Assembly (NCBI GenBank): GCA_963815115.1
Contig: CAWFFN010000009.1
Location: forward strand, 224,001-288,000
Origin: an uncultured delta proteobacterium
GTDB lineage: Bacteria; Desulfobacterota; Binatia; DP-6
Direction of reading: 5' to 3'
DNA length: 64,000 bases
Part shown: one piece after another, positions 2,909 to 63,947 of the stretch
Position numbering within the stretch: position 1 is the first letter of the stretch
Layout of the letters: each line of letters opens with the position of its first letter
Program-made: the position numbers and the translations under genes
The notes under the pieces: generated by a model
What the model was told of the DNA's origin: nothing
Seen by the model: the letters and a program-made list of their open reading frames with translations, nothing else
Databases searched by the model: none

Positions 2909-2960
2909 CGCGATCTAGCCCCCCGGCGCCCAAAGCACTTTCGAGCAGAGGAGAGACCCG

Positions 2961-3329: not shown

Positions 3330-3347
3330 AACCCGAAGGATGGTGCA

Positions 3348-3710: not shown

Positions 3711-3763
3711 CGCCCGCCGCCGAACGCTTGCACTAGCGGAGGAAGATGCTGTGATCGGAGGCC

Positions 3764-5050: not shown

Positions 5051-5105
5051 AGCGGGATCGACGCTCGAGCGAGCCCGGTCGCTACTCCGGTTGGGTCGCG
5101 CTCGC

Positions 5106-5774: not shown

Positions 5775-5839
5775 GGGGCGAGCCTCGCGCCACGGTGCTG
5801 ATCGGTTGGAGACGCGGTTTCATGGGCGCGGCGCTTCTC

Positions 5840-7047: not shown

Positions 7048-7625
7048 CGAGTATCCCTCGGGGCGTCCCTCGTGAGCGCTTCGGGGCTCGGCCATGTGTA
7101 GCGGCAGCTGCGGCCGGTTCCTCCACCAGGGTTGGCGACGTCCGCAGTCCCCGCGTTGGCCGCCCCGAGCCCTTCGTAGAATCGTCTCGCCGCCTGGTTG
7201 GCCTCCCACACCCACAGGTAGACACCACGGTCTCCGTGGGACGCCGCGAGCCACGCGCCGGCGTGCCTCATGAGACCGGAGCCGACCCCCGCTCGTCGAT
7301 GGTCGTGTGCCACGTGCAGGTTGTCGATGAAGGAACCCCACCGGGGATCCTGACCGCCGTAGGCACAGACGAAGCAGACGACCCGGGCGCGATCCGTGGC
7401 CAGGGACACGAGCTGATTTGGCGGCGGGCGGTCGAGCCGCTCTCGCCATGCCTCCTGCCGGTCGGCAAGAACATCCCCGTCGAGAAACTCGTCGCGAAAA
7501 TTTCCCCGGTAGGTCCGCCGCCAGCTGTCGGCGTGGAGCTGTGCGATGGCCTCGGCATCCTTTTCGCTGGCAATTCGATACTGCACGAGCCCGACGACCG
7601 TAGGCGACGCTCGCATCCGCCGCAA
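7044..7625 (-). CDS. GNAT family N-acetyltransferase
   Basis: HADSWRRTY...IDNLHV..HRRAGVGSGL...NQAARRFYEGLG; exact start uncertain. Confidence 0.85.
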   Translation of the reverse strand: MRRMRASPTVVGLVQYRIASEKDAEAIAQLHADSWRRTYRGNFRDEFLDGDVLADRQEAWRERLDRPPPNQLVSLATDRARVVCFVCAYGGQDPRWGSFIDNLHVAHDHRRAGVGSGLMRHAGAWLAASHGDRGVYLWVWEANQAARRFYEGLGAANAGTADVANPGGGTGRSCRYTWPSPEALTRDAPRDTR

Positions 7626-7720
7626 CGGGCCGGTCAGGCTGCGTCACGCGCTCTGGCCGGTAGTTCGAGATCGAGCCGCGAGGGCTTCCATCGGCCGCCC
7701 GGATGCGGCACGTCCGTTCC

Positions 7721-8230
7721 ATGGACACCCCGGAGATCATCGCGCAATTCGCCAAGATGCTGGAGAACCTCGACCGCTGGCTGGAGGCGGGCACCGCGTT
7801 CGCGGAGAAGAAGAAGTTCGCCCCGGACGTGCTCGCGCAGTCGCGCCTGGCCCCCGATCAGTACGAGCTGATCCGGCAGGTGCAGTCGGCCTGCGATGCC
7901 GCGAAGTACGCCGCCGGCTATCTGTCGGGGCAGGCGGCGCCGTCGCATCCCGACACGGAGAAGACCGTCGAGGAGCTGCGCGCGCGCGTCCGGACCTGCG
8001 TCCAGTATCTCCGCAGCGTGAAGCCGTCGGAGTATGCCGGTGCCGCAGACCGGCGCGTGGCTCCTCCCTGGATTCAGGGGAAGTGGTTCCGCGGCGCCGA
8101 CTATCTCGCCCAGGTCGCCGTCCCCAACTTCTACTTCCACGTGACGATGGCGTACGCCATCCTGCGCCACAACGGGGTCGATCTCGGCAAGATGGATTTC
8201 ATCGGGTCGCTGCCCGTTCGCGACGCCTGA
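7721..8230 (+). CDS. DUF1993 family protein
   Basis: RLAPDQY.L..QVQSACD.AK...PNFYFHVTMAYAILRHNGVDLGKMDF. Confidence 0.9.
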   Translation: MDTPEIIAQFAKMLENLDRWLEAGTAFAEKKKFAPDVLAQSRLAPDQYELIRQVQSACDAAKYAAGYLSGQAAPSHPDTEKTVEELRARVRTCVQYLRSVKPSEYAGAADRRVAPPWIQGKWFRGADYLAQVAVPNFYFHVTMAYAILRHNGVDLGKMDFIGSLPVRDA

Positions 8231-8246
8231 TCGGCTCGGGCTGCTC

Positions 8247-8549
8247 ATGCGGCTCGAGCGCATCCCGTGGGACGGCCCGGGCGCTCCCTCGGAGGCGACC
8301 TTGCGCAGCCGACTCGAGGCCGAGGGCTTCGGGGTCTTCTGCTGGCGCGACGAGGCCGGCGCCGCCTACACGGCGCACGCGCACGACCACGACGAGAGCC
8401 TCTGGGTGGTCGACGGAGAGATCACCTTCGGCGCCGGCGGCGCCGAGCTCCGTCTCGGCCCCGGCGATCGCCTCATGCTGCCGCGCGGCACCGTGCACAC
8501 GGCGAGGGCCGGTCCGCGCGGCGCAACCTATCTGATCGGCGAGCGCTAG
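8247..8549 (+). CDS. Cupin domain protein
   Basis: HAHDHDE...LGPGDRLMLPRGTVH cupin motifs. Confidence 0.85.
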   Translation: MRLERIPWDGPGAPSEATLRSRLEAEGFGVFCWRDEAGAAYTAHAHDHDESLWVVDGEITFGAGGAELRLGPGDRLMLPRGTVHTARAGPRGATYLIGER

Positions 8550-8624
8550 CCGGCTGTCGCGCGGGGCGGCGGCGCCCGGCTCGCGCGCCGACGTTGTCTT
8601 GACAGTGCCGGCTGCGGGAGGACA

Positions 8625-10673
<2,049 letters not shown>

Positions 10674-10692
10674 TCGAGCGATCGGCCAGCGA

Positions 10693-11286
10693 TCAGTCCT
10701 GGATCAGGACGGGCGTGCCCACCCAGACCAGGCTGGCGAACTCCTCGATCGCGGCGTTGTCGAGCGAGATGCACCCCCACGTCCAGTCGATGCGCTCGCG
10801 GTTCAACCACGGCTTGTCCGTGCCGTGGATGCCGACCGCGCCTCCCACGCCGGCGTGCCCGCTGCCGTACGCGGGCACCATGCCGTCGGCCAGCGCTGTC
10901 CGGTAGCGGTTCGAATCCTGGATGTTCGGGTAGTCGAGCAGGAAGAAGTGGCCCCAGCGCTCGTGGGCTCGCTCGCCGATGATCATGTAGAGGCCGGTCG
11001 GCGTCCGGTGATCGCCCTCGTACAGCTTGCGCTCGGTGATGCCGCCGTCCCCGAACACCGCCGGATAGCTCCGGATGCGCTGGCCGTAGCGGTAGACGTC
11101 GAGGGTGCGGCAGGTCTTGCGGATGACGACGAACGAGGGCTCCTGGGTGGCCCACTCCAGCCGATCCTCGTCGGCGAGGAAGGGCGAGGGCCCGATCTTC
11201 TTCTTGGGGGAGGCGCACGCCGTCACCACGGCCACCATCACCACCACCCCTGCCGCGACACGCAGCGCCCGCATGGTGCGTCGCAT
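10693..11286 (-). CDS. L,D-transpeptidase (YkuD) family lipoprotein
   Basis: Lipobox VTAC; EGDHRTPTG, GIHGT...WTWGCISL catalytic His/Cys. Confidence 0.85.
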   Translation of the reverse strand: MRRTMRALRVAAGVVVMVAVVTACASPKKKIGPSPFLADEDRLEWATQEPSFVVIRKTCRTLDVYRYGQRIRSYPAVFGDGGITERKLYEGDHRTPTGLYMIIGERAHERWGHFFLLDYPNIQDSNRYRTALADGMVPAYGSGHAGVGGAVGIHGTDKPWLNRERIDWTWGCISLDNAAIEEFASLVWVGTPVLIQD

Positions 11287-11353
11287 TGTTACGTAGAACC
11301 GGGGCCTTGGGCAAGCCATGCAGGCATCCGGGGAATGTGATACCGCGCCAGCC

Positions 11354-52568: not shown

Positions 52569-53339
52569 GTGGGGCGGGCGCTGCGCCGCAGCTGCGTGCT
52601 TGCCGTGCTGGCCCTCGCGGGCTGCACGCTTGGCCGTCCCGCGCTCCGACCGGTCGCCGAGGGCGTCACCGCGGAGCGGCTCCTGTCGGCCCTCGATGCT
52701 CGCCGGCAGTCGGTCACCTCGTTGCGTGCGCGCGCCCGCTTGAAAGCAGGGCTCGCCGGCATCTGGACCCGCCAGATCGTGCTCGTGCAACGTCCCGGCG
52801 ACGTGCGCATGGACGTGATGTCGCCGTTCGGGCTGGCGCTGGCGGTCGGCACGCAGCACGACGTGCTGTGGGCCTACCAGCCTTCCAACGAGGTGCGCTA
52901 CGAGGGCGAGGCCAGCCCGCTCAACCTGGCGCGCTTCCTGGGCGCACCCGTGACGGTCGCGGATCTGGTGGACGTGCTCCTCGGGCTGCCACCACGACGG
53001 GACGCCACCGGTCCGCCGGCGCTGGGACGCACGGCAGACGGCGGATGGGTGCTCGGCCTGCCCTTCGACGGCGGCACGCAGCAGCTCTCGTTCGACGCCT
53101 CGACGCTCGAGCTGCGCCGCGCCGAGGAACGGCGCGGCGACGTGGTCGCTCTCGCGGTCGAGTTCGGTGACTACCAGAACGGCTTCCCGCACGCCCTCGA
53201 CGTTTCCGCGCCGGTGGTCGGCTCGTCGGCCCGCCTCGCGTACGATGCGGTGGAGCCGAACGTGCCGCTCGACGCCACGCTCTTCTCTCCTCCGCCGGCG
53301 ACGCACGTGCTGCCGCTGGAGGCGGCGTCCCGCCGCTGA
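52569..53339 (+). CDS. LolB/DUF4292-like lipoprotein
   Basis: Lipobox LAGC; RMDVMSPFG; follows the TPR lipoprotein gene. Confidence 0.6.
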
Positions 53340-54295
53340 TGGCGCTGCTCGAGGTCCGCGATCTCCGGATGGCCTTCCCGACCCCCGCCGGCGAGGCGCA
53401 TGCCGTCGACGGGGTCAGCTTCGCGCTCGAGCGCGGTCAGGTGCTCGGGCTGGTCGGCGAGTCGGGCTGCGGCAAGAGCATGACGGCGCTCTGTCTCATG
53501 CGGCTCGTGCCGCCGCCGGGACGGATCACGGGCGGCCAGGTGCTGTTCCAGGACCGCGATCTGATGACCCTGCCGGAGCCGGAGATGCGCGCGCTGCGCG
53601 GGTCGCGGATGGCGATGATCTTCCAGGAGCCGATGAGCGCCCTCAATCCCGTGCTGAGCGTGGGGAACCAGGTCGCCGAGGCCGTTTTCCTGCACCGGCG
53701 TGTCTCGCGGCGCGAGGCCCGGCAGCGCGCCGTTGGCCTGCTCGGCGAGGTGGGGATATCCGATGCGGCGCGCCGGGCGGCCGACTATCCTCATCAGCTC
53801 TCCGGTGGGATGCGGCAGCGGGTGATGATCGCCATGGCCATCGCCTGCGAGCCCCTGCTGCTGCTGGCGGACGAGCCCACCACGGCGCTCGACGTGACGA
53901 TCCAGGCGGAGATTCTGGCGCTTCTCCGCACGCTCCGGGAGCGCCACGGGATGGCCGTCCTCCTGATCACCCACGACCTCGGCGTGGTGGCGGAGCAGGC
54001 CGACCAGGTGGCGATCATGTACGCGGGCCGGATCGTCGAGCACGCCGGGGTGGACGACCTCTTCACGCGGCCGCGCCATCCCTACACCCAGGCGTTGCTG
54101 CGCTCGATGCCCGCGCTCGGCACGCGTGTCGAGCGCCTGGAGGCGATCCCGGGGCAGGTGCCGAGCCTGACGCGGCTGCCCAGCGGCTGCGCGTTCCGCG
54201 ACCGCTGCCCGATCCACATCGACGCCTGTGCCGCGGCGGTGCCGCCGCTGGAGGAGAAGGCCCCGTCGCATCTGGCGGCCTGCATCCGGGCATGA
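53339..54295 (+). CDS. Oligopeptide/dipeptide ABC ATPase (OppD/DppD-like)
   Basis: [33 protein letters not shown]-terminal Cys motif. Confidence 0.93.
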
Positions 54296-55275
54296 ACGGC
54301 ACCCCGCTCGTCGAGGCGCGCGCGCTGCGCAAGCACTTCCCGGTCGGGCGCGGACTCCTCGGCCGTCCGCACGCGGTCGTGCGCGCCGTCGAGGACGTCT
54401 CGCTCGACATCGCCGCGGGGGAGACGCTCGGGCTGGTGGGCGAGTCGGGCTGCGGCAAGTCCACCCTCGGGCGCTTGATCCTGCGACTGATCGAGCCGAC
54501 CGCCGGTGACGTGCGCTTCGACGGCCGTTCACTCCTCGAGCTCGGCCCGCGCGAGCTGCGCGCCATGCGGCGCGCGATGCAGATCGTCTTCCAGGATCCG
54601 TACGGCTCGCTGAATCCCCGCATGCGGGTGGCGCGCATCGTCGGCGAGGGGCTCGCGATCCACCACATCGGGACCCGGCAGGAGCGCGGCGACCGCGTGC
54701 GCGCGCTCCTCGACCTGGTGGGACTGCCCGTCGACGCCGCCGTGCGCTACCCGCACGAGTTCAGCGGAGGCCAGCGACAGCGCATCGGCATCGCCCGTGC
54801 GCTCGCCGTCGAGCCGCGCTTCATCGTCGCCGACGAGGCCGTGTCGGCGCTGGACGTGTCGATCCAGGCTCAGATCCTGAACCTGCTCCAGGAGCTGAAG
54901 CAGCGGCTCGGCCTCACGCTGCTCTTCATCTCGCACGACCTGCGGGTGGTCGAGCATCTCAGCGACCGGGTCGCGATCATGTACCTGGGGCGGATCGTCG
55001 AGATCGGCCCTCGCGATCTGGTCTACGGCGATCCGCACCATCCCTACACGCGCGCGCTGCTCTCGGCCGTGCCGGTCCCGGACCCGCGCCGGCGGGTGGC
55101 ACCACCGCCGCTCGGCGGGGACGTTCCGAGCGCGTTGTCACCACCCTCCGGCTGTGCCTTCCATCCGCGCTGTCCGTACGCCCAGGACGTCTGCCGGCGC
55201 GTGACCCCGCCGCTCGAGGCGGGACGTACGCCGCGCGCCGTGGCGTGCCACGTGTTCCCGGCCGAGCCGAGCTAG
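54292..55275 (+). CDS. Oligopeptide/dipeptide ABC ATPase (OppF/DppF-like)
   Basis: [41 protein letters not shown]. Confidence 0.93.
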
Positions 55276-55359
55276 CAGGCTTCCCCCGCCTGCCTCTCCG
55301 CGGGTGTTCTCCGCGAGTCGGTGCCTGGGTCTGTGCACGGAGGTGAGTTGTCTTGAAAC

Positions 55360-55376
55360 AAGGTAGTTCTTGACAC
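55360..55376 (+). promoter_or_regulatory. 17-bp motif AAGGTAGTTCTTGACAC containing TTGACA; candidate PadR operator
   Basis: 15/17 identical to the motif upstream of padR (63338-63354, minus strand); CAAG-N6-CTTG dyad. Confidence 0.55.
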
Positions 55377-55405
55377 GAGTGAGATGACCGTGGTGAGTGC
55401 GAGCG

Positions 55406-57973
55406 ATGAGGGCGGCGCTCTCGCTCAGGATGGCGTACCGCCACGTGAGGTCGGCGTGGGTGCGCATGGCGCTCAGCGTGCTGGCGGTCGGGCTGGCCGT
55501 CAGTCTGGTCGTTGGCATCCGGCTGATGAACGGGGCGGTCCTCGCATCCTTTCTCGATGCCGTGGAGGCGATGGGCGGCCGTGCGGCGCTCACCATCACG
55601 GGCGCCGATGGAGCCAGCTTCCCGGATGCGCTGGTCGACGCGGTGGCGAAGGTGCCGGGCGTGAAGCTCGCCGTACCACTGGTCAGCAGCATCGCGTTTC
55701 CCGACGACGAGACCGGCGAGCTCCTCACGGTCCACGGCGTCGACTTCACGCACGACGCGGACGTGCGGCTGTACCACGAAGGTGATGCGGACGAGATTCT
55801 GGACGATCCCATCGTGTTCCTGAACGATCCCCGCTCGGTGGTGCTCACGAGACAGTTCGCCGAGGAACGCGGGCTGGAGCTCGGGCAGGCGATCCGACTG
55901 GCCACCCCCACCGGCGTGCAACCGTTCACGATTCGCGGGTTGCTCGAACCGCAGGGTCTCGCGCGCGCCCTCGGGGGCCGTCTCGTCGTGATGGATCTCT
56001 ACGCCGCTCAGCGCGCCTTCGCCTCCGACGGCCGCATCAACCAGATCGACCTCGTTCTCGACCAGGGGATGGATGCGGACGCCGTCAGGACACAGCTGAC
56101 GACGCTCCTTCCCACGGGGCTCGAGGTGCGCGAGCCGGCGGCACGCAAGGAGGTGGTGAGTCAGAGCATCGCGGCGTTCCAGTCGATGCTCACCGCGTTC
56201 GGCCTCCTCGCCGTCTTCGCGGGCTTCGTGATCTGCTACACGCGACTCGGGGCGATCTTCGAGGCGCGGACCTGGGAGGTTGGCCTGTTCCGCGCCGGCG
56301 GGCTGCGCCGCTCCGTCGTCTTCTGGGAGCGTCTGAAGGAGAGTCTCCTGCTCGGCGCTGCGGGCGCGGCGGTCGGGATTCCCCTGGGGTTCGTCATCGC
56401 AAAGTTCGGCCTGCCGGTCCTCGCCACCACCACGTCTCTCGCCTCGGGCCTGCCGGTCGCGGTGGCCAATCCCGCTCTCGAGCCCGGCGACGTCATCTTC
56501 GGCGTAACCCTGGGTCTCTGCGCTGCGGTTGCGGCGGCGATCGTTCCAGCGATCCGGACGGCACGCACGAGCCCGGTGGCGGCGCTCACCATGCGCGGCC
56601 GCGAGACATCACCGGCCACCGTGCAACCGACGTGGCGGGGTCCGGCGATCCTCGCCCTGCTGATCGCTGGCCTCCTCGTGGCGCAGCGCCTGTCGGGCGT
56701 GCGAGCCATCGGCCTCGTCACCACCTCCAGCATCGTGCTCATGGGGTGTCTGCTGGCGACTCCGCTCGTCGGCTACGGCGCCCGGTTGCTGAAGATACTC
56801 TGGAGCCGCGGGTTCGGTATGGCCGGCCGCGTCGCGGCGAGCCATCTCGCCCGCCACCCGCGTCGCACGGCCCTGGTGACGGCCACGCTCGGCGTGGGGC
56901 TGGGCAGCGTGCTCATGCTCGCCATCCTCGGGTGGAGCTTCGAGCAGAGTCTCGTGTCCACTCTCAGCCGCCGGATGAAGGCGCCGCTGCTGGTCACGTC
57001 GGCGTTCCCTGCCGGGGGCTATCTATACGCACCGATGAGCCAGGAGGTGGTGGGCGAGCTGGTGCGCGTTGCCGGTGTGGCGAAGGTGGTTGGCGAGCAG
57101 AACCGCGACATCAACTACGGAGGCGGCTCCGTTCACCTGGTCGCGTTCGACCCCGATGGTTTCACCGATCATCGGGTTGCGGACTGGCCGATCGACGAGG
57201 GGGACTCAGATAGTGCGCTTCGCGCCCTGGCGAGCGGCGAGGGCGTCGCCGTGACGAGGGGGTTCGCGAACCTCCACGGAACCAGGCCCGGCGACAGCAT
57301 CGAGCTGAGGACGTTGCAGGGGCCACACACCTTCGAGGTGGTGGCGATCACGAGTGGCGTTCTCGAGAGTGCGGTGGTCATGAGTCGCGAGCTCTACCGG
57401 CCGCTGTGGAATGACAGCGTCGTCTCCTGGATCGATGTCGTGGTCGAGGAAGGAAGCGACCCCAAGACGGTGGCCGCGGCAATCGCTTCGAACCTCGGTC
57501 GCAGCCATCGCCTCCGCGTCTGGGAGAACGCCGCGCTCCTCGACCACTTCGCCAGCCAGGCGCGTCAGGCGTTCAGTGTGCAATACGTCATGGCGGCGAT
57601 TGCCCTTCTGCTCGTTCTCGTCGGAGTCGGCGATACGCTCGCCGCGAGCGTCACCGCCCGCACCCGGGAGATCGGCATGATGCGAGCCGTGGGCCTGTCT
57701 CGATCCGGCGTCGTGCGCATCGTGATCCTCGAGGGGATGGCCATCGCAGTGCTCGGACTTGTCCTGGCGGGTGCGGTCGGGCTCGCGCTCGGTGTGTTCT
57801 GGGTGGAGGTGCAGTTTCCAGCCTTCCTCGGCTGGGGTCTTACCTTGCACCTTCCCATGGCCTTTATCCTCGCCACCGCGGTCATCACGCTGACCTTGTG
57901 TCTGGCCGGATCTCTGCTCCCGTCGCTCCGGGCCGCGTGGCTCCCTGTCACGGTAGCGCTGCGAACCGAGTGA
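55406..57973 (+). CDS. FtsX/MacB-type ABC transporter permease with two FtsX domains
   Basis: Two periplasmic-domain plus TM units; RTWEVGLFRAGG and RTREIGMMRAVG FtsX motifs. Confidence 0.9.
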   Translation: MRAALSLRMAYRHVRSAWVRMALSVLAVGLAVSLVVGIRLMNGAVLASFLDAVEAMGGRAALTITGADGASFPDALVDAVAKVPGVKLAVPLVSSIAFPDDETGELLTVHGVDFTHDADVRLYHEGDADEILDDPIVFLNDPRSVVLTRQFAEERGLELGQAIRLATPTGVQPFTIRGLLEPQGLARALGGRLVVMDLYAAQRAFASDGRINQIDLVLDQGMDADAVRTQLTTLLPTGLEVREPAARKEVVSQSIAAFQSMLTAFGLLAVFAGFVICYTRLGAIFEARTWEVGLFRAGGLRRSVVFWERLKESLLLGAAGAAVGIPLGFVIAKFGLPVLATTTSLASGLPVAVANPALEPGDVIFGVTLGLCAAVAAAIVPAIRTARTSPVAALTMRGRETSPATVQPTWRGPAILALLIAGLLVAQRLSGVRAIGLVTTSSIVLMGCLLATPLVGYGARLLKILWSRGFGMAGRVAASHLARHPRRTALVTATLGVGLGSVLMLAILGWSFEQSLVSTLSRRMKAPLLVTSAFPAGGYLYAPMSQEVVGELVRVAGVAKVVGEQNRDINYGGGSVHLVAFDPDGFTDHRVADWPIDEGDSDSALRALASGEGVAVTRGFANLHGTRPGDSIELRTLQGPHTFEVVAITSGVLESAVVMSRELYRPLWNDSVVSWIDVVVEEGSDPKTVAAAIASNLGRSHRLRVWENAALLDHFASQARQAFSVQYVMAAIALLLVLVGVGDTLAASVTARTREIGMMRAVGLSRSGVVRIVILEGMAIAVLGLVLAGAVGLALGVFWVEVQFPAFLGWGLTLHLPMAFILATAVITLTLCLAGSLLPSLRAAWLPVTVALRTE

Positions 57974-58018
57974 GGTCCGCGCTGAGGGCGTGTGCCGGTG
58001 TCCGATCGTCGACGGTGG

Positions 58019-59320
58019 TCAGGTCGCGGAGGGCCCGGCGCCGAGCACGTCGCCAATTGCAGCCGCCGCGTATGCGAGATCGCTCTCGGTGTGGCCAACG
58101 GTCACGAAGCAGCGCAGGCGCTCCGTGCCCGGCTGAACCCCGGGCGGTATGACCGCATTCACGAAGACTCCGCGCTCGAGGAGGGCGGAGGCCGCAGCGA
58201 GTGTCCGAACGCGTTCGCCGACGCGGACCGGTATGACCGCGCTCTCGCTCCCGAAGGTGTCCAGGCCACGGCTGGCGAGCGCCGACCGGAAGAACGCTGC
58301 GTTGTGTTGCAACCGGGCAACGCGTTCCGGCTCCTGCTCGAGGATCTCGACCGCCGCCAACGCGGCGCCGACGTCCGCCGGTGTCATCGCCGCCGAGTGG
58401 ATGCTCGCGTGCGACGCGTACCGCAGGACCATGGCGATCGAGGCATCGACGGCGGCGAAGCCGCCGACCGCTGACAGGGCCTTGCTCAGGGTTCCGATCC
58501 GGATGTCGATCGCCGCAGGGTCGATTCCGAAGTGCTCGGTCGCACCCCGACCGGTCGAGCCGAGAACTCCAAAAGCGTGAGCCTCGTCAGCGAGCAGGTA
58601 GGCGCCATGTCGACGGGCGATCTCCACGAGCGCGGGAAGAGGGGCGAGGTGTCCTTCCATCGAGTAGGCCGTTTCGACGACCACGAGGCGGCGGCGGATC
58701 GATGACGAGCGGTCCAGTATCTTCTCGAGATGGCGAAGATCGTTGTGCGCGAAGCGCTTGAGCGAAGCCCGCGACAGGAGCGCTCCGTCATACAAAGAGC
58801 GATGGGCGAGGCGATCGAGGATGATCAGGTCACCTGGACCGAACAAGGCAGAGATCACCGACACGTTCGTCGCGTAGCCGCTCGAATAGGTGACGGCACG
58901 CGGAGCACGCACGAATGCCGCCAGGCGCTGCTCGAAGTCCCAGTGGACACGCGTCGTCCCGCACAGCACGCGCGTTCCGCCGGCGTGCGTACCGTGGCGC
59001 TCGATGGCGGCAATGCTCGCCGCCTTTACCCGCGGGTCATTCCCCAGGCCGAGGTAGCCATAGGCGGCCAGATTGATGACGGACAGGCTGGGATCGGCGA
59101 CCTCGTTGAACTCCACTCGTCCGGGAGGCCCGAGCACGGTTCTCTCGCCGATCGCTCCGAGATTCTGCCGGTCGTAGATTCCGGCGAAGGGTGACGCCCC
59201 GAGCGTCACGAGGTTCGTGACGGCATCCAGGAGCCGAGGAGAGCTCTTGACGAGATCGTGAGGCTCGACGTCCCTTGGCGTGGATATCGGTTGGGAAAGG
59301 TTCACGGCCTGACCGCTCAT
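58019..59320 (-). CDS. PLP-dependent alpha-oxoamine synthase (BioF/serine palmitoyltransferase/Kbl family)
   Basis: YLGLGNDP, SSGYATN, DRLAHRS, FAHND, YSMEG, DEAH, GTLSK (PLP Lys). Confidence 0.88.
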   Translation of the reverse strand: MSGQAVNLSQPISTPRDVEPHDLVKSSPRLLDAVTNLVTLGASPFAGIYDRQNLGAIGERTVLGPPGRVEFNEVADPSLSVINLAAYGYLGLGNDPRVKAASIAAIERHGTHAGGTRVLCGTTRVHWDFEQRLAAFVRAPRAVTYSSGYATNVSVISALFGPGDLIILDRLAHRSLYDGALLSRASLKRFAHNDLRHLEKILDRSSSIRRRLVVVETAYSMEGHLAPLPALVEIARRHGAYLLADEAHAFGVLGSTGRGATEHFGIDPAAIDIRIGTLSKALSAVGGFAAVDASIAMVLRYASHASIHSAAMTPADVGAALAAVEILEQEPERVARLQHNAAFFRSALASRGLDTFGSESAVIPVRVGERVRTLAAASALLERGVFVNAVIPPGVQPGTERLRCFVTVGHTESDLAYAAAAIGDVLGAGPSAT

Positions 59321-59326
59321 AGGACC

Positions 59327-61907
59327 TCACTCGTTGCGCAACGCAGCCGGTACGGCAAGACGTGCAGCTCGGAGGGCGGGTAGGAGCGAGCCTGCAAGGC
59401 ACAGCAATAGAGTGACCACGGCCATGACGATCATGGAGACGACCGGCGGATGCAACTCGAGGTTCCAGCCGAGGATAGCCGGGAATTGCACGTCGACCCA
59501 GAAAACGCCCAACGCTATCCCGAGCATTCCGGCTAGCAACAAGCCCATCACCGCGATTCCCGCACCCTCCAGGAGCACCATCTCGAGGACCCGAGAGCGG
59601 TAGCAGACCAATCGCGCGCATCATTCCGATCTCTCTGGTGCGGGCATTGACTCCCGCCGCCAGAGTATCGCCAATGCCGACCAGCACGAGCAGGAGCGCG
59701 ATACCCTCCGTTAGGTAGAGCACGCTGAACGCTTGCCGGGCCTGGCCGGCGAAGTGCTCGACCATCGCTGCACTGGTCAAGATACGGAGGCGGTGCGTCT
59801 CGCCAAGCTCGCTAGCGATAGCCGCCGCAACTTCTTCGGGTGTATGACCTTCTGCCACTGCTACGCGTATCCACGTGACCAAGTCATCGTTCCACAGATC
59901 CGGCTATAGAGCGCTCGGCTCATAAGAACTGCGCTCTGGGGCCGACCGCTAGTGAGCGCGGCCACCTTGAACGTGCGGGGTCCCTGCATGGTTGTGAGTC
60001 GATCGTCGTCTCCCGGCCGAGTCCCATGCAGATTGGCGAACGACTGCGAAACGAGCACGGCTTCGCCTTCGCGACGGACCTAAGTGCGTCGGAGCGCGTT
60101 AGCCTCCAACGCCCAGTCGCATACCCGACGGTCGAGTGAAGCAGGACGGATCATAGCGGATGCGAGGAGGGTGGACTCGATTAGCATACCTGATGTCTCG
60201 CTCCTGCTCTCCGACTGCGACGGCAACGCCTGGGACCTTTTCGAATCGTCCTCGACGAGGCTCTCGCTCATCGGCGCGCTGCGATGAGCCCCCAGCCGTG
60301 AACGGAGATGTCACTATCGAGTTGCGCGCGTGATACCGCCGAGTCAGGGCAGATACGAGGCTACTCTCAAAGCTCCAACCCAGGATGCCCAGCATCAACA
60401 CGCTGCCCAGGCCAATTCCCAATGTCGCAACCGTCAGCGCCGTGCGCCGCGGGTTTCGCACGAGATGCCCGGCCGCGACCCGGCCTCCGGGCCCGAACCA
60501 CGCGCTCCATAGAAGCTTCAGGAAGCGGCTCCCGTAGCCCACGAACGGTGTCGCTAGGAGGCCTCCCCCGATCACAATCAAGGCCGTCGTGACGAGGCCG
60601 AGGGCCCTAATCCCGGACACGTGCTGGGCGATGAGAAGCGCGCCGACCAGAACGCCCACCAGGGCGGGCCACCGCCATTTCGGGGGTGGCACCGGCGACG
60701 GCATCTCCCTCCCGCGCATCGTCAATGCCGCGACGGGATGCGTCCGGGACATCCGCAACGCCGGCACCACGGCAGCGGCCACGGCCGCTCCGATTCCCAG
60801 TGCGAGTCCGAGGAGGATGTCGGGCAACGTGAGACCGAGCTTCGCTTCCGGGACCGGTAGGTTGGAGGCCAGAGCGGTCGTCGTCGCCAGGAACGGCAGT
60901 CCGACGCGCGCCACCAGCACGCCCAGAGGAATGCCGAGCGCTGCTCCGGCCGCTCCCAGAAGCACGCTCTCCTTCAGAAGCTCCCGGAACACCGCCGAGC
61001 GCCGCAACCCCCCCGCGCGCAGCAGCCCCACCTCCCACGTGCGCGCCTCGAAGATCGCTCCGAGGCGGCTGTAGCAGATGACGAAGCCGGCCACGACGGC
61101 GAGCAGTCCGAAGGCGGTCAGCATGGACTGGAACGCCGCCACGCCGTCGCGCACGACCTCCTTGCGCAGCGCCGGCTCCTGGACCTCGAGGCCCGGCGGC
61201 ATCGCCGCCGCCAGGGCGGTCCGCGTGGCGGCCACGTCGGTCTCCGGGTCGATGACGATATCGATCTGGTTGATCTGGCCGTCCGCGGCGAACGCCCGCT
61301 GCGCGGCGTAGAGATCCATCACCACGAGCCTGCCGCCCAGAGCACGCGCCACGCCCTGGGGCTCGAGCAGTCCCCGGATGATGAAGTCCTTCACCCCCGT
61401 CGGCGTCACCAGTGGGACCTGCTGCCCGACGGCGAGACCGCGTCGCGCGGCGAACTCGCGTGTGAGGATGACCGAGCGCGGGTCGTTCAGGAAGACGAGC
61501 GGATCGTCGAGGATCTCGTCGACGCCCTCCCCCTGGTCGTAGAGGCGAACGTCCGCTTCGTGCCCGAAATCGACACCGTGCACGGTGAGGAGCTCACCGC
61601 TGGAGTCGTCCGGAAACGCGACCCCGGTGACGAGCGGGACCGCGAGCTTGACGCCGCGCACGCCGGCGGCCGTCTTGGCGACCTCTTCCGGGAAGGTGGC
61701 GTTGTCGCGCGCCGTGATCGTCAGGGCGGCGCGTCCCCCGACCGCGTCAACCGCGTCGAGGAAGGACTGCAGCACGGCCGTGTTCATCAGCCGGATGGCG
61801 ACGACCAGCGCCACACCGAGGGCCACCGCCACGATGCTCAGCGCCATGCGCCCGACGGCCGAGCGCACGTGGCGGTACGCCAGCGTGAGCGACAGCGCGG
61901 CCCTCAT
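59327..61907 (-). pseudogene. Second FtsX/MacB permease paralog with several frameshifts at about 59600-60340 (real decay or sequencing error)
   Basis: Collinear with 55406-57973 from MRAALSL to ALRNE; the 3' third is split over ORFs 60080-60271, 59861-60058, 59037-59882 and 59327-59611. Confidence 0.75.
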
Positions 61908-62635
61908 CGATCACTTGCCACCAGGGTCAACTCGCTCGTCCGCTCGGGAACGCGCACGTCGCGAATGACGCGGCCGTCCTGCATCTCCAGGGTACGCTCG
62001 CCGTACATGGCCGCGAAGAGATTGTGGGTGACCATGACCACCGTGACGCCGGCCGACCTGTTCAGGGCTGCCAGCATGTCGAGGATCAGCTGGCCCGTGT
62101 GCGAATCGAGGTTTCCGGTGGGCTCGTCCGCGAGCAGGATCGACGGATGGCCGACGATGGCGCGCGCGATCGCGACGCGCTGCTGCTCGCCACCCGACAG
62201 CTCGCCGGGGTAGCGCCGCTCGCGATCGGTCACGCCGACCTGCTGCAAGGCTGCCGCCGTCATGCGGCGCACGTCGGCCTTGGACCGACCGGCGAACTCG
62301 AGGAAGAGGCCGACGTTCTCCTCGACGGTCAGCGCGGGTATCAGGTTGAACGCCTGGAAGATGAAACCGATCCTGTGAAGGCGAAGATCGGCCAGCTCGT
62401 GATCGGCGAGTGTGCCGAGGTTGACGCCGTCGAGGACGACCTGGCCGCTGTCGGGCACATCGAGACCGGCGATCAGGTTGAGAAGCGTCGTCTTGCCCGA
62501 GCCGCTCGGTCCCATCAGCGACACGAAGGCGCCTTTGCGAACCTCGAGGTCGAGGTTCGCGAGAGCCCGGCTGGCTTGCGCGCCCGTGCCGTAGCTCTTC
62601 GTGACCCCGGACAGCCGGATGGCGACTTCGCTCAC
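61904..62635 (-). CDS. ABC transporter ATP-binding protein (MacB/LolD family)
   Basis: GPSGSGKTT, GFIFQAFNL, LSGGEQQR, ADEPTGNLD, VTH. Confidence 0.95.
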   Translation of the reverse strand: MSEVAIRLSGVTKSYGTGAQASRALANLDLEVRKGAFVSLMGPSGSGKTTLLNLIAGLDVPDSGQVVLDGVNLGTLADHELADLRLHRIGFIFQAFNLIPALTVEENVGLFLEFAGRSKADVRRMTAAALQQVGVTDRERRYPGELSGGEQQRVAIARAIVGHPSILLADEPTGNLDSHTGQLILDMLAALNRSAGVTVVMVTHNLFAAMYGERTLEMQDGRVIRDVRVPERTSELTLVASDR

Positions 62636-63243
62636 TACGAAGAAACTCCGGGGCGGCGACGGGCGGGCCGCCTCTGGGCGATCGGCTCGGATGCCTCCAC
62701 CTCCTCGGTGCGAGGGGGACAGAGCGTGGTGTCGATCTGCATGCGGAGCTCCTTCAAGAACTCGAGATCCGCTTCGACCTGCTTGAGGCGCCGCGCCAGC
62801 AGCACCGGCAGTGGATTGTACTTGCCGGGCGCATTCGCGGCGGCGTCCTGGAGCGCATCGTCGTGTCGCCGCGCGAGCGCCTTGCCCTGCATCCAGAGCT
62901 CTTCTTGCCAGCGATCCAGGAGGCGCGTCAGGGCCTCTCGCGGAACGCGGTCGACGAAGAGGAGTCGCTCGCAGATCTCCTCGCTACCGCCTGACGACAC
63001 CAGCCACCGGTCGAACACCTGCGTGCCAGGGGTGGTGATCTGGTATGGAATCCGCCGCGGATCGGCTTCGGGGGGGTTCGTGCCGGTGCTGATCAATCCC
63101 TGGGTCGCGAGCCGGGCCAGCACACGGTAGAAGCTGCCCGCGCTCGCCTGGTTGCCTGATCGCGCTTTGTACTCGCTCATGAGCTGGTAGCCGTGGTGTG
63201 GCTGCCCGTCCCGAAGCAGTCCGAGGAGCATGTGCACGAACAT
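62635..63243 (-). CDS. PadR family transcriptional regulator
   Basis: LLGLL...HGYQL...GSFYRVLARL..GLI...RRIPYQIT..G; C-terminal helical extension. Confidence 0.88.
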   Translation of the reverse strand: MFVHMLLGLLRDGQPHHGYQLMSEYKARSGNQASAGSFYRVLARLATQGLISTGTNPPEADPRRIPYQITTPGTQVFDRWLVSSGGSEEICERLLFVDRVPREALTRLLDRWQEELWMQGKALARRHDDALQDAAANAPGKYNPLPVLLARRLKQVEADLEFLKELRMQIDTTLCPPRTEEVEASEPIAQRRPARRRPGVSS

Positions 63244-63337
63244 CGGCGTCCCCCTTCAGAGCCTGTGGTTCCCCTGCGGCTGACCTCGAGATCGCGGCAT
63301 CACCGACCTGCCTGCAGATAGTGTCACGTGGGCCGGG

Positions 63338-63354
63338 GTGTCAAGGATTACCTT
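63338..63354 (-). promoter_or_regulatory. 17-bp motif AAGGTAATCCTTGACAC (AAGG-N4-CCTT dyad overlapping TTGACA) upstream of padR
   Basis: A/T-rich patch about 95 nt upstream of the padR ATG; repeated at 55360-55376. Confidence 0.6.
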
Positions 63355-63521
63355 TAGTTAGTCGCCCGGAGTGCGTGCACGGCACCGAATAGCGCGCGCT
63401 GCTCGCGAACGCTCCGCGCGCCGAGCGGCGCGGTATCTTCGAGTCGTCGGGTCCCGCATGACGCGGCGCGCGCGTGGAAGACCGGCGGCTTCCTCCGCGC
63501 AGAGATGGCCCTTCGGGCGGA

Positions 63522-63550
63522 TTTACAGGTCCACCGCAGGACCCTATACT
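63522..63550 (+). promoter_or_regulatory. Sigma70-type promoter for the bactofilin gene
   Basis: TTTACA-N17-TATACT, followed by GGAGG RBS and ATG at 63597. Confidence 0.7.
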
Positions 63551-63596
63551 CCCGCCCCTCGCGAGGTGGGGTGGTGTGGTCGGGAGGATCAGAACG

Positions 63597-63947
63597 ATGT
63601 GGGAAGACGTGCGCATTTCGCTGGGTTCCGATGCCGAGGCGAGCGGTCGGCTCTCATTCGTCAGCCCGACTCGCATCGAGGGTAAGCTGAAGGGCGAGGT
63701 CCGGTCGTCCGATCTGCTCGTCGTCGGGCCGCAGGGCATGGTGCAGGCGACGGTGCGGGCCGACAAGCTGGTGGTGCTCGGCGAGGTCCGTGGCGAGGTC
63801 CTGGGCGCGAGCCGCGTGGAGATCTGCGCCGGCGGACGGCTCTTCGGCGACGTCGAGACTCAGAGCCTCGTCGTCCACGAGGGGGCCACCTTCGAGGGAC
63901 GCTCGCGGATGGCCGGCCAAGCCACTGCTGCAGCCGGCACGTCCTGA
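63597..63947 (+). CDS. Bactofilin (polymer-forming cytoskeletal protein)
   Basis: RIEGKLKGEV...LVVGPQG.V...VVLGEVRGEV...LVVHEGATFEGRSRM beta-helix repeats. Confidence 0.9.
   Translation: MWEDVRISLGSDAEASGRLSFVSPTRIEGKLKGEVRSSDLLVVGPQGMVQATVRADKLVVLGEVRGEVLGASRVEICAGGRLFGDVETQSLVVHEGATFEGRSRMAGQATAAAGTS

What the first reader, a model, noticed from the sequence alone, without database searches (positions are those of the whole stretch)
55330..63390. Candidate new system: PadR-controlled alpha-oxoamine synthase with twin MacB/FtsX exporters
Seen: an operon padR - ABC ATPase - permease - alpha-oxoamine synthase, faced by a second paralogous permease, in DNA visibly more A/T-rich than the flanks; no bio or tdh genes nearby. 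Known: this enzyme family condenses amino acids with acyl-CoA/ACP (sphingoid bases, CAI-1/LAI-1 signals, biotin precursor). Inference: a make-export-sense unit for an amino-ketone lipid or signal. I do not recognise this architecture.
Basis: partly seen in the sequence, partly recalled or inferred. Interest (0 to 1): 0.7.

Follow-up and report, generated by a model that had tools for sequence, protein, structure and literature searches.

The report
PadR-regulated aminoketone synthase and exporter islet
An 8-kb inserted gene block in an uncultured soil bacterium joins an unusual amino-acid/acyl condensing enzyme to a repressor and a Lol/MacB-type membrane pump; this cassette recurs in related bacteria, has not been studied, and probably makes and ships out a lipid-like aminoketone.

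Summary
The genes are real. padR, an ABC ATPase, a duplicated FtsX/MacB-type permease and an alpha-oxoamine synthase (AOS) form a minus-strand operon with overlapping or nearly abutting stop and start codons. A 61%-identical second permease faces it. The whole 8.2-kb block (55276-63509) is an insertion: in 4 of 4 same-genus genomes the flanking genes are adjacent.

The four-gene set recurs in four other genomes and in about 15 metagenome contigs. None of 167 loci with other AOS genes has such a permease or PadR. The AOS forms its own clade (71 rows, support 100). It is sister to FAAL-ACP-AOS fusion enzymes, lies far from BioF and Kbl, and scores below every curated BioF/Kbl/SPT/CqsA cut-off. 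The genome has a true BioF elsewhere.

- The in-operon permease is broken in this assembly. Whether this is real decay or assembly error is unresolved.
- A 17-mer found only twice in the 6.9-Mb genome precedes both padR and the facing permease, which suggests one regulon.

Related PadR-ABC operons hold other lipid-type enzymes (type III PKS, KAS III-like, cis-prenyltransferase, P450) or LolA-like genes.

Best reading: a regulated make-and-export cassette for a hydrophobic aminoketone. The product is unknown. I rate it a new variant of a known kind.

The parts
55276..63509 (.). Inserted islet of 8.2 kb between an Opp/Dpp-type ABC ATPase gene and a bactofilin gene
   Evidence: In G001-G004 (4 of 4 same-genus genomes) DNA matching window 52600-55275 and DNA matching 63510-63947 lie about 40-160 nt apart. 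Homology ends at 55275 and resumes at about 63510. Island GC is 0.675 against 0.713.
55320..55338 (+). GGTGCC-N7-GTGCAC element upstream of the facing permease; candidate operator, untested
   Evidence: It aligns with GGTGCCGTGCAC upstream of padR. A similar GGTGCTGTGCA lies upstream of padR in locus L179.
55360..55376 (+). 17-mer AAGGTAGTTCTTGACAC, holding a -35-like TTGACA, about 30 nt before the facing permease start
   Evidence: It is one of only two matches to AAGGTANTNCTTGACAC in the window at up to 2 mismatches (0 expected). It is also one of only two in the whole 6.9-Mb genome at up to 1 mismatch.
55406..57973 (+). Intact duplicated FtsX/MacB_PCD permease of 855 aa from ATG 55406 (the ORF is open from GTG 55397); no ATPase gene of its own
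   Evidence: Pfam finds MacB_PCD (1.5e-29) and FtsX (3.5e-25), two stretches each. It is 61% identical to the operon copy. The ATG start matches the operon copy's N-terminus and the 855-aa database entry P0135. Its clade is sister to the operon-type permease clade, support 100.
58019..59320 (-). Alpha-oxoamine synthase of 433 aa, intact
   Evidence: PF00155, 182.5 bits. It is below all NCBIfam equivalog cut-offs. H173, D245, H248, K280 and R403 are invariant. AlphaFold model pLDDT is 87.4, and TM to SPT/Kbl/BioF structures is 0.81-0.87. It sits in a 71-row clade with support 100.
59327..60098 (-). Disrupted C-terminal third of the operon permease
   Evidence: tblastn with the paralog and with intact relative P0123 follows frames -1, -2, -1, -2 with an in-frame stop. 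GC here is 0.627. Five indel sites at 60135-60250, counted against a short-read contig, lie just upstream of this part.
60099..61907 (-). Open N-terminal 602 codons of the operon permease (first MacB_PCD plus FtsX unit)
   Evidence: Pfam hits. It is 80-83% identical to intact proteins of about 835-856 aa, P0121-P0128.
61904..62635 (-). ABC ATPase of the MacB/LolD/FtsE type, 243 aa
   Evidence: PF00005, 121 bits. Best NCBIfam hits are DarD, FtsE and LolD, all below cut-off. It is 55-70% identical to the cassette ATPases in other loci.
62635..63243 (-). PadR-family regulator of 202 aa, first gene of the operon
   Evidence: PF03551, 50.4 bits. A PadR gene heads the cassette in all 4 other complete loci.
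63338..63354 (-). 17-mer AAGGTAATCCTTGACAC with a -35-like TTGACA, 95-111 nt upstream of the padR start
   Evidence: CTTGAC lies 61-102 nt before padR in all 5 cassette loci.
63376..63386 (-). GGTGCCGTGCA element 41 nt upstream of the CTTGAC box; candidate operator, untested

Best explanation
This is a horizontally acquired, self-contained cassette that makes a hydrophobic alpha-aminoketone and moves it out of the inner membrane under PadR control.

The proposed steps, each marked as shown or inferred:
1. The AOS is an active PLP enzyme (shown: the catalytic set is intact). It condenses an amino acid with an acyl thioester taken from primary metabolism. The acyl group is probably a medium- or long-chain fatty acyl-CoA or acyl-ACP. 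This is inferred from the sister relationship to FAAL-ACP-AOS fusions and from the absence of any other biosynthetic gene in the cassette.
2. The type VII (MacB/LolCDE-like) ABC transporter consists of one ATPase gene and a fused-dimer permease with two periplasmic domains. It extracts the product from the membrane and passes it to the periplasm, the outer membrane or the outside (inferred).
3. PadR represses its own operon and the facing twin permease through the shared upstream motif, and it is released by the product or by membrane load (inferred).
4. In this genome the operon's own permease copy is disrupted, or was mis-assembled. The intact facing paralog, which has no ATPase gene of its own, would then work with the operon's ATPase (inferred).
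For: Linkage:
- The PadR, ATPase, permease and AOS genes are the only genes shared by 5 loci within about 10 kb on either side. The loci are the window, G005, G020 (also seen as metagenome contig L097), G548 and G506. The partial contig L098 shows permease end, ATPase and AOS.
- 17 AOS-clade entries share an exact contig length with a permease hit. Among them are the sister genome and G506.
- Control: 0 of 167 loci with AOS genes at 46% identity or less (114 of them at least 10 kb long) hold such a permease or PadR.
- In the permease tree the AOS-linked permeases fall into several groups. One of these has the other gene order, with L097 next to the AOS-free L202 at support 95. The one AOS clade is therefore attached to more than one module lineage.

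The enzyme is distinct:
- Its clade has 71 rows, support 100, and a stem of 0.40-0.52.
- It is sister to FAAL-ACP-AOS fusions at 98-99 support.
- Signature residues H112, R170, R174, Y177, E400 and C404 sit on top of an unchanged catalytic set.
- Its BioF model score is 339.6-339.9 bits against a cut-off of 426.45, while the gene on contig C5 scores 454.7.

One unit:
- Codon junctions are overlapping or tight.
- The whole block is an insertion.
- The 17-mer occurs only at the two promoter-side positions in 6.9 Mb.
- The facing and operon permease clades are sisters.

Lipid theme in related PadR-ABC operons:
- cis-prenyltransferase in L192.
- KAS III-like enzyme with a VTT/DedA protein and an enoyl-CoA hydratase in L191.
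- Type III PKS in L205.
- P450 in L201.
- Short-chain dehydrogenase (SDR) in L206.
- LolA-like genes beside L204 and L209, and near the G005 AOS cassette.

The organism has an outer membrane: its BamA scores 653.9 against a cut-off of 297.
Against: - No chemistry, expression or binding data exist.
- Neither substrate can be read from the sequence. The fold search does not separate SPT, Kbl and BioF.
- The cassette holds no reductase, N-acyltransferase, ACP or acyl-activating gene, so a mature sphingolipid-like product is not encoded.
- The subfamily's extra Arg, His and Glu residues near active-site motifs could instead point to a polar or charged substrate.
- The operon permease is disrupted here, and the sister assembly's copy is called at only 527 aa (P0126). 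The system may therefore be decaying in this lineage.
- About 12 of 21 related PadR-ABC loci examined have no enzyme attached. The pump family therefore does not need a co-encoded enzyme.
- The 17-mers lie near the two ends of the island in inverted orientation. They could be remains of a duplication or of a mobile element rather than operators.
- The permease tree and the large AOS tree are FastTree only.
Confidence: 0.45

Rival explanations
1. Signal loop. The AOS makes a small autoinducer-like aminoketone or hydroxyketone. PadR is its cytoplasmic receptor. The ABC system only helps release, or protects the producer. The function is cell-cell signalling rather than placing a lipid in the envelope.
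For: - It is a single-enzyme pathway beside a one-component regulator.
- There is a precedent in passages I read (bioRxiv 10.1101/2025.08.20.671311): Bacteroides fragilis Lgs, an AOS encoded next to a TetR regulator, yields a released molecule needed to relieve TetR repression.
- CqsA and LqsA are AOS-family signal synthases (recalled; PDB entries listed).
- No tailoring genes are conserved in the cassette.
Against: - The AOS is far from CqsA: 182 bits against a cut-off of 428, and 105 bits to CAI-1 synthase chains against 235 for the best PDB hit.
- Its nearest relatives are fatty-acyl-loading fusion enzymes.
- A diffusible signal would not need a dedicated type VII ABC pump with twin permeases.
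- Sibling operons carry lipid enzymes rather than signal synthases.
Confidence: 0.2
2. Envelope-stress or resistance module. The PadR-ABC pair is the primary unit. It removes or senses an external hydrophobic toxin or peptide, as recalled for the BceAB, MacB and YtrBCDEF types. The AOS is an accessory that remodels the cell's own lipids during that response. The pump's cargo is not the AOS product.
For: - PadR-ATPase-permease triplets without any enzyme are common in relatives (L193-L198, L203, L207).
- Homologs of the permease were found in 34 of 41 genomes, whereas the AOS was found in only 5 of 401.
- Passages read in PMC11237479 propose PadR-like regulators paired with membrane sensors, including FtsX/MacB_PCD proteins, as an alternative to two-component signalling.
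Against: - The AOS clade was found only attached to such modules.
- The permease has no N-terminal HAAS-type domain. Pfam finds only MacB_PCD and FtsX, and the first membrane helix starts at about residue 20.
- Enzymes embedded between the transporter genes (L192, L205) are hard to explain if they are unrelated to the cargo.
Confidence: 0.17
3. Decaying remnant. In this genome the islet is no longer a working system, because the operon permease is a pseudogene and the rest is on its way out.
For: - The permease shows frame changes and stops.
- GC falls to 0.60-0.64 over the broken part.
- The sister assembly's copy is also truncated, at 527 aa.
- The indel sites are not in homopolymer runs.
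Against: - The AOS, ATPase, PadR and facing permease are all intact. The AOS is 95% identical to the sister's copy over its full length, as expected under purifying selection.
- The facing-type permease clade has 9 rows, 7 of them from other records, so it has been kept for a long time.
- A short-read contig from the same study reads 60092-60285 as one open frame. The breaks may therefore be assembly errors.
Confidence: 0.12
4. The AOS is an ordinary spare BioF or Kbl that happens to sit beside a transporter.
For: - JGI annotation names clade members '8-amino-7-oxononanoate synthase' or 'glycine C-acetyltransferase'.
- The best single NCBIfam hit is bioF.
- The top PDB sequence hit is the promiscuous Thermus BioF/Kbl enzyme.
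Against: - It is below the BioF and Kbl cut-offs (339.6 against 426; 297 against 460).
- The genome has a BioF that passes the cut-off elsewhere.
- E. coli BioF and Kbl, Vibrio BioF and the genome's own BioF all fall on the other side of the tree.
- No bio or tdh genes lie in the islet.
- It was found in 3 of 25 family genomes and 5 of 401 class genomes.
- It has subfamily-specific residues at substrate-proximal motifs.
Confidence: 0.04

Closest known systems
FAAL-ACP-AOS fusion enzymes, and PKS plus AOS sphingolipid clusters such as SgaAB of Pseudomonas fluorescens MYb115 (PMC12134224, passages read)
   Same: The AOS domains of the fusions are the nearest branch to this enzyme at 98-99 support. 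The chemistry would be condensation of an amino acid with a carrier-bound fatty or polyketide acyl chain to give a long-chain aminoketone.
   Different: Here the AOS stands alone. No AMP-binding, ACP or PKS gene lies in the cassette. The fusion and PKS loci fetched have no PadR or type VII permease. I did not place SgaB itself in my tree.
Serine palmitoyltransferase and bacterial sphingolipid or sulfonolipid first-step enzymes (SPT, CFAT/SulA)
   Same: Same fold and catalytic residues. SPT structures are marginally the best structural matches: 8guh at TM 0.83-0.91. The N-terminal domain has SPT-like length, since the PDB alignment starts at query residue 73-80 against chain residue 37-68.
   Different: It is below all three SPT equivalog cut-offs: 302 against 640, 301 against 500, and 241 against 670. 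It is a separate clade from the Bacteroidota-type SPT group. The N/D of the N-[ND]-Y-L-G motif is G or S, H-A-S is H-R-S, and the loops that line the amino-acid pocket in CFAT (passages read in PMC13692747) carry other residues. No ceramide-pathway genes are linked.
CqsA/CqsS and LqsA/LqsS alpha-hydroxyketone signalling, and the Lgs-TetR pair of Bacteroides fragilis (bioRxiv 10.1101/2025.08.20.671311)
   Same: One AOS enzyme is encoded next to its presumed sensor or regulator, giving a make-and-sense logic with a released product.
   Different: The regulator is PadR rather than a histidine kinase or TetR. A dedicated ABC exporter is part of the unit. The enzyme is far from CqsA (182 bits against a cut-off of 428).
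Type VII ABC systems: LolCDE with LolA, MacAB-TolC, DevBCA, FtsEX, BceAB, YtrBCDEF (functions recalled, not tested here)
   Same: MacB_PCD plus FtsX permease architecture with a LolD/FtsE/MacB-type ATPase. There are weak sequence matches to MacB, LolC and YtrF structures. LolA-like genes lie beside three related modules.
   Different: The permease is a fused tandem of two units (855 aa). It is below the LolCE, MacB and ADOP cut-offs. No membrane-fusion or TolC-type gene lies in the islet. It is paired with a biosynthetic enzyme and PadR.
PadR plus ADOP-type duplicated orphan permease pairs of Acidobacteria (TIGR03433/TIGR03434), and the HAAS-PadR dyad (PMC11237479)
   Same: A PadR regulator is encoded next to a duplicated FtsX/MacB_PCD permease. 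The facing permease is an 'orphan' without an ATPase gene.
   Different: Scores are far below both models: 29 against 101.8 and 76.5 against 622.3. An ATPase is encoded in the operon. No HAAS-type N-terminal domain was found. An AOS is attached.
BioF and Kbl
   Same: Same family, and the names given by automatic annotation.
   Different: See the fifth rival: it fails the cut-offs and the tree placement, and it lacks the gene context.

Membership tests
Alpha-oxoamine synthase family (fold-type I PLP enzymes) | Aminotran_1_2 domain and AOS fold | tested here: met
   PF00155, 182.5 bits. AlphaFold model pLDDT is 87.4. TM to SPT, Kbl, BioF and ALAS structures is 0.81-0.87.
Alpha-oxoamine synthase family (fold-type I PLP enzymes) | PLP lysine, stacking histidine, the Asp/His of D-x-A-H, and the C-terminal arginine | tested here: met
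   K280, H173, D245, H248 and R403 are invariant in the clade and in 205 other AOS rows. The roles of these residues are recalled or taken from passages in PMC13692747.
BioF (8-amino-7-oxononanoate synthase) | Score over the TIGR00858 equivalog cut-off | tested here: not met
   339.6-339.9 bits against 426.45. The gene at G000:C5:146513-147595 scores 454.7.
BioF (8-amino-7-oxononanoate synthase) | bio gene neighbourhood, and grouping with known BioF | tested here: not met
   No bio genes lie in the islet. E. coli, Vibrio and own-genome BioF are on the opposite side of the tree.
Kbl (glycine C-acetyltransferase) | Equivalog cut-off, and an adjacent tdh gene | tested here: not met
   297.1 against 460 and 248.7 against 493. 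No tdh gene in the islet. E. coli Kbl is distant in the tree.
Serine palmitoyltransferase | Equivalog cut-offs NF047600, NF047599 and NF047603 | tested here: not met
   302.3 against 640, 300.8 against 500, and 241.1 against 670. Porphyromonas levii SPT (666.7, passes) is in another clade.
CqsA/LqsA autoinducer synthase | Equivalog cut-off NF005526, and an adjacent sensor kinase | tested here: not met
   182.3 against 428. No kinase gene in the islet. No CqsA sequence was available for the tree.
Type VII (MacB-type) ABC transporter | Permease with a periplasmic MacB_PCD domain and an FtsX four-helix unit, plus a cognate ATPase | tested here: met
   Pfam hits. ATPase best hits are DarD, FtsE, LolD and MacB. 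PDB matches are MacB, LolC and YtrF.
MacAB-TolC tripartite efflux pump | Membrane-fusion adaptor and an outer-membrane channel partner; ATPase fused to the permease | tested here: not met
   The islet holds only five genes and none is of these kinds. The ATPase is a separate gene. Partners encoded elsewhere were not searched for.
LolCDE lipoprotein-release system | lolCE and LolD equivalog cut-offs | tested here: not met
   72.5 against 362 and 215 against 307.75.
ADOP / padR_acidobact pair | TIGR03434 and TIGR03433 cut-offs | tested here: not met
   76.5 against 622.3 and 29 against 101.8.
HAAS-PadR dyad | HAAS (DUF1700/DUF1129/DUF1048) domain on the membrane partner | tested here: not met
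   Pfam finds only MacB_PCD and FtsX on both permeases, and the N-terminus runs straight into a hydrophobic helix. A remote HAAS-like fold in the PadR C-terminal half was not tested.
PadR-family repressor | PadR winged-helix domain | tested here: met
   PF03551, 50.4 bits against 27. PDB matches include AphA and PadR.
PadR-family repressor | Binds an operator at its own promoter and is released by a ligand | not testable with these tools
   Only motif evidence exists: the 17-mer at two sites and upstream palindromes that differ between loci.

The most novel reading that the evidence does not exclude
The islet is one member of a so-far undescribed modular family in this bacterial class. Relatives in the same family carry the NCBI label 'Candidatus Binatia'; I infer this from matching contig lengths.

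The family's platform would be a PadR-controlled, Lol-like type VII ABC extractor, sometimes with a LolA-like carrier. Single hydrophobic-product enzymes are plugged into it: AOS, type III PKS, KAS III-like, cis-prenyltransferase or P450. Each cassette would then synthesise one specialised lipid and deliver it to the outer membrane or the outside. That would be a general route for placing non-phospholipid lipids in a diderm envelope.

The AOS version would make a free sphingoid-type aminoketone with one enzyme.
Probability: 0.25. Interest if true: 0.75.

Novelty: new variant of a known kind. Interest (0 to 1): 0.55.

Why it matters
AOS enzymes start sphingolipids, sulfonolipids, biotin, haem and several bacterial signals. 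A well-separated clade, known only from uncultured soil bacteria and always tied to a repressor and a Lol/MacB-type pump, points to an unknown aminoketone natural product and to a dedicated way of moving it.

How bacteria carry sphingolipid-like and other non-phospholipid lipids across the periplasm is, as far as I recall, poorly understood. A cassette that encodes only the synthase, the pump and the switch is a compact, transferable test case. If the sibling cassettes with PKS III, KAS III-like and prenyltransferase genes work the same way, the pump family would be a general lipid-export platform.

If the cassette proves to be only a resistance pump with a passenger enzyme, the finding is ordinary.

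Tried and rejected
- Collection scans. The genome contigs and metagenome-contig scans used generic AOS peptide patterns. They returned almost only distant AOS genes. The metagenome scan gave just two clade members (L097, L098). The other loci served as the control set.
- Sequencing runs. Four DNA rows from one soil study were listed, and no RNA holder. This says nothing on expression.
- Read laying. Depth is about 3 and cover is patchy. Nothing covers 59420-59627 or 59732-60043, and only short fragments touch 59628-59731. Most of the breaks could therefore not be checked.
- GC3-periodicity scan for other broken genes in the window. It flagged nothing, not even the known broken permease, so it is not informative about assembly quality.
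- Homopolymer check of the indel sites. The sites are not in runs. This argues against one error type only.
- Foldseek against the PDB. It confirms the fold but does not separate SPT, Kbl and BioF.
- ESM Atlas. It gave only generic AOS clusters.
- PADLOC. No hit for the AOS or PadR, and only generic ATPase and LolE-like matches. There is no support for a defence-system reading.
- Earlier findings of this scan. Nothing was returned.
- Literature. No paper in the held library combines 'oxoamine synthase' with FAAL plus ACP, 'fatty acyl-AMP ligase' or MacB. The single paper with PadR is, by its listing, an unrelated transcriptome study, and I did not open it. A broader search was off target. Supplementary files were not consulted.
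- Single origin for AOS-linked permeases. The permease tree needs at least 6 label changes. Many of the 'no AOS' labels rest only on contig-length inference.
- Terminal repeats or target duplications at the island borders. I saw none beyond the inverted promoter-side motifs.

Full report
**1. What is in the sequence**

The window is G000:C9:224001-288000 of a 6.9-Mb, 12-contig genome with about 71% GC.

Between 55.3 and 63.4 kb lie five genes (ORFs; Pfam):
- PadR, 62635-63243 on the minus strand.
- An ABC ATPase, 61904-62635 on the minus strand.
- A permease with MacB_PCD and FtsX domains, starting at 61907 on the minus strand.
- An alpha-oxoamine synthase (AOS), 58019-59320 on the minus strand.
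- A second permease, 55397/55406-57973 on the plus strand, convergent with the AOS. It has two MacB_PCD and two FtsX stretches.

The junctions on the minus strand fit one operon. The padR stop overlaps the ATPase start (TAGTG). The ATPase stop overlaps the permease start (ATGA). Six bases containing GAGG separate the permease stop from the AOS ATG. A bactofilin gene follows at 63474-63947 on the plus strand.

**2. The operon permease is broken in this assembly**

It is open for 602 codons. tblastn with the facing paralog (61% identity) then follows frames -1, -2, -1 and -2 down to 59327, with an in-frame stop. The same is seen with an intact relative, P0123. The genome search counts 3 and 5 stops in the two read-through pieces. 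GC falls to 0.60-0.64 over exactly this part.

Evidence on whether the damage is real is mixed.

Points towards real decay:
- The sister genome (AOS 95% identical, P0001, contig of 969,310 bases) has its operon permease called at only 527 aa (P0126). It has an intact 854-aa facing paralog (P0133) on the same contig.
- The indel sites are not in homopolymer runs.

Points towards assembly error:
- Relatives at 80-83% identity have intact proteins of about 835-856 aa (P0121-P0128).
- One low-depth short-read contig from a soil run (X1, record 2, 88.7% alike) lacks six bases at five places in 60135-60250. Leaving those bases out gives a single open frame that matches the paralog, with alignment score 141 against 75.
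- That contig may come from a related strain. Neighbouring contigs match the window exactly.
- All five differences are extra bases in the window. That is unusual for natural decay, by my recollection of bacterial deletion bias.

Nothing covers 59420-59627 or 59732-60043, and only short fragments touch the stretch between them. I leave the question open, at roughly even odds.

**3. The block is an insertion**

In all four same-genus genomes (G001-G004), DNA matching window 52600-55275 (the Opp/Dpp-type ATPase genes) and DNA matching 63510-63947 (bactofilin) lie about 40-160 nt apart on one contig. Homology stops at 55275 and resumes at about 63510.

The islet therefore spans 55276-63509 and includes the facing permease. 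Its GC is 0.675 against 0.713. GC3 of its genes is 0.79-0.87, against mostly 0.90-0.95 for genes elsewhere in this genome. I saw no flanking direct repeats.

**4. The gene set recurs and is specific to this AOS clade**

How often the AOS was found (E at or below 1e-95 to 1e-100):

| Sample | Genomes with the AOS |
|---|---|
| Same family | 3 of 25 |
| Same class | 5 of 401 |
| Same phylum | 1 of 401 (the window's own genome) |

Gene order in the other loci:
- G005, G548 and G506 have padR, ATPase, permease, AOS.
- G020, which is the same as metagenome contig L097, has padR, permease, ATPase, AOS.
- The partial contig L098 shows permease end, ATPase and AOS.

An all-against-all comparison of ORFs from five loci found only these four genes shared within about 10 kb on either side.

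The protein search found about 75 proteins at 50% identity or more, then a gap to 48% or less. Of the 38 AOS-clade entries on contigs of at least 4.7 kb, 17 share an exact contig length with a permease hit. This list includes the sister genome and G506. Two more (P0071 for G005, P0044 for G020) were verified by locus. The other 19 have no match among the 120 of 286 permease hits that were listed, so nothing can be said about them.

As a control, none of 167 loci carrying AOS genes at 46% identity or less (114 of them at least 10 kb long) has a detectable permease or PadR of this kind.

**5. What the AOS is**

It scores below every curated equivalog cut-off:

| Model | Score (bits) | Cut-off (bits) |
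|---|---|---|
| bioF | 339.6 | 426.45 |
| Kbl | 297 | 460 |
| SPT (three models) | 302, 301, 241 | 640, 500, 670 |
| ALAS | 221 | 339 |
| CqsA-type | 182 | 428 |

The genome has a BioF that passes the cut-off on contig C5, at 454.7 bits, and no third full-length AOS.

Tree results:
- In a FastTree of 276 AOS domains, the cassette enzymes form a 71-row clade with support 100 and stem 0.40. Its sister, at support 99, is a 41-row clade.
- The five scanned members of that sister clade are AMP-binding(FAAL-type)-ACP-AOS fusions. A sixth is a stand-alone alphaproteobacterial protein.
- An IQ-TREE run of 57 rows gave cassette clade support 100. Cassette plus fusion clade had support 98. The Bacteroidota-type SPT group was separate (99). 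E. coli BioF and Kbl, Vibrio BioF and the genome's own BioF fell on the other side.
- No CqsA, ALAS or proteobacterial SPT sequence was in the tree.

Residues:
- The catalytic residues H173, D245, H248, K280 and R403 are invariant.
- Subfamily-specific residues sit in or next to substrate-proximal motifs. They are G/S88 in place of N/D, H112 in place of G/S, R170, R174 (so H-A-S becomes H-R-S), Y177, Y301, E400 and C404.
- Passages read in PMC13692747 place the equivalent regions of a cysteate acyltransferase within 4 Å of the bound amino acid. A distinct substrate choice is therefore likely, but I cannot name it.

The AlphaFold model is confident (pLDDT 87.4). It matches SPT, Kbl, BioF and ALAS structures about equally well.

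**6. The twin permease and regulation**

In the permease tree (FastTree, 130 rows), the operon-type clade (8 rows) and the facing-type clade (9 rows) are sisters at support 100. Next to them lies a group that includes AOS-linked permeases. The twin is therefore an old duplicate of the cassette's own permease, kept in several relatives. It has no ATPase gene of its own.

Upstream of padR and upstream of the facing permease lie near-identical 17-mers, AAGGTAATCCTTGACAC and AAGGTAGTTCTTGACAC. These are the only two matches in the window (0 expected). They are also the only two in the whole genome at up to 1 mismatch. The pattern was derived from these two sites, so the test is the absence of any third site. 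A shared GGTGCC...GTGCAC element lies further upstream.

A CTTGAC box lies 61-102 nt before padR in all five cassette loci, with locus-specific palindromes nearby. This fits one PadR regulon with two inward-facing promoters. Binding is untested, and remains of an inverted duplication would look similar.

**7. Wider family**

Permease homologs are common: they were found in 34 of 41 relatives. I examined 21 loci without an AOS (L190-L210).

| Finding | Loci |
|---|---|
| Enzyme inside or abutting the PadR-ABC operon | L192 (own genome): cis-prenyltransferase; L191 (own genome): KAS III-like, with glyoxalase, VTT/DedA and enoyl-CoA hydratase; L205: type III PKS; L201: P450; L206: short-chain dehydrogenase |
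| LolA-like gene adjacent | L204, L209 |
| UbiA-type prenyltransferase about 700 nt away, plus twin (split) permeases | L210 |
| Only unrelated neighbours, or none scanned | The remaining 13 (L190 next to a YfhO-like gene; L193-L200, L202, L203, L207, L208) |

The G005 AOS locus also has a LolA-like gene 1.5 kb from padR.

AOS-linked permeases are scattered among AOS-free ones, needing at least 6 label changes. One example is L097 next to L202 at support 95. The single AOS clade has therefore joined, or been lost from, several module lineages. The genome encodes BamA, so the organism is a diderm.

**8. Reading**

Shown:
- An inserted, conserved four-gene cassette with an extra paralogous permease.
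- A distinct AOS clade with an intact catalytic set.
- Specific linkage between that clade and the transporter and regulator.

Inferred:
- The AOS makes a hydrophobic aminoketone from a fatty acyl thioester.
- The type VII ABC system extracts and exports it.
- PadR controls both promoters and responds to the product or to membrane load.

Precedents for an AOS paired with a regulator exist: Lgs-TetR and CqsA (recalled). Precedents for AOS-derived lipids also exist: SgaAB and SPT. I found no paper on this architecture.

Rivals are a pure signal loop, a stress or resistance pump with an accessory enzyme, a decaying remnant, and a spare BioF or Kbl. The last is close to excluded.

**9. Verdict**

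This is a new variant of known kinds (AOS pathways; type VII ABC systems). It is of moderate interest, and higher if the modular 'enzyme plus PadR-ABC' family proves to be a general lipid-export platform.

Noticed in passing
L192 = G000:C7:644000-659000 (operon about 6451-11298, minus strand): A second PadR (51% identical to the islet's) heads an operon of ATPase, cis-prenyltransferase (PF01255) and an 867-aa duplicated permease in the same genome.
   Followed up: partly
L191 = G000:C5:925000-940000 (2732-9964, minus strand): PadR, ATPase and an 859-aa permease are followed on the same strand by a KAS III-like enzyme, a glyoxalase, a VTT/DedA membrane protein and an enoyl-CoA hydratase.
   Followed up: partly
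L205 (G006:C9), L201 (G019:C126), L206 (G009:C250), L204 (G003:C10), L209 (G038:C1): Related PadR-ABC operons carry a type III PKS between the permease and the ATPase, a P450 overlapping the ATPase stop, an SDR, or adjacent LolA-like genes.
   Followed up: partly
L210 = G029:C3:450200-468300: PadR, permease, ATPase and a second permease lie in one direction. Both permeases are split into two ORFs, and stops were flagged. A UbiA-CMD fusion gene lies about 700 nt downstream. This is another twin-permease layout, possibly also damaged.
   Followed up: no
L107, L111, L118, L137 and L100 (metagenome contigs): Tri-domain FAAL(AMP-binding plus DIP2-like)-ACP-AOS proteins of about 1100-1200 aa form the sister clade (L100 is cut at its contig end). 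L114 and L142 have much longer ORFs (2115 and 2421 aa) ending in an AOS domain, and these were not scanned.
   Followed up: partly
L096 6772-7623(+) and L097 2738-3253; L194 8814-9419 and 10433-10942: Some cassettes have two PadR genes. In G020 a second, divergent PadR lies upstream. In G013 a PadR lies on each side of the ATPase.
   Followed up: no
window 60452-60602: A short-read contig (X1, record 3) differs from the window by 7 substitutions and no indels inside the intact part of the operon permease. Neighbouring contigs are identical to the window. This points to strain variation or a patchy consensus.
   Followed up: no
window 59691 to 61201: In run X2 one contig joins 59691 to 61201 with 36 other letters in between (table 5c). 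It may be a different organism's or paralog's sequence, or a deletion variant of the operon permease. Unexplained.
   Followed up: no
window 63522-63550 (+): A TTTACA-17-TATACT promoter-like site before the bactofilin gene is conserved in G001 and G003. It marks the right edge of ancestral DNA.
   Followed up: partly
L095 7844-8947(-), 17504-19999(-); L096 95-457(-): Mobile or polymorphic-toxin-type neighbours lie next to other copies of the cassette: an IS481-type transposase fragment and an RHS-repeat protein in G005, and an Uma2 endonuclease in G020. This fits horizontal movement.
   Followed up: no
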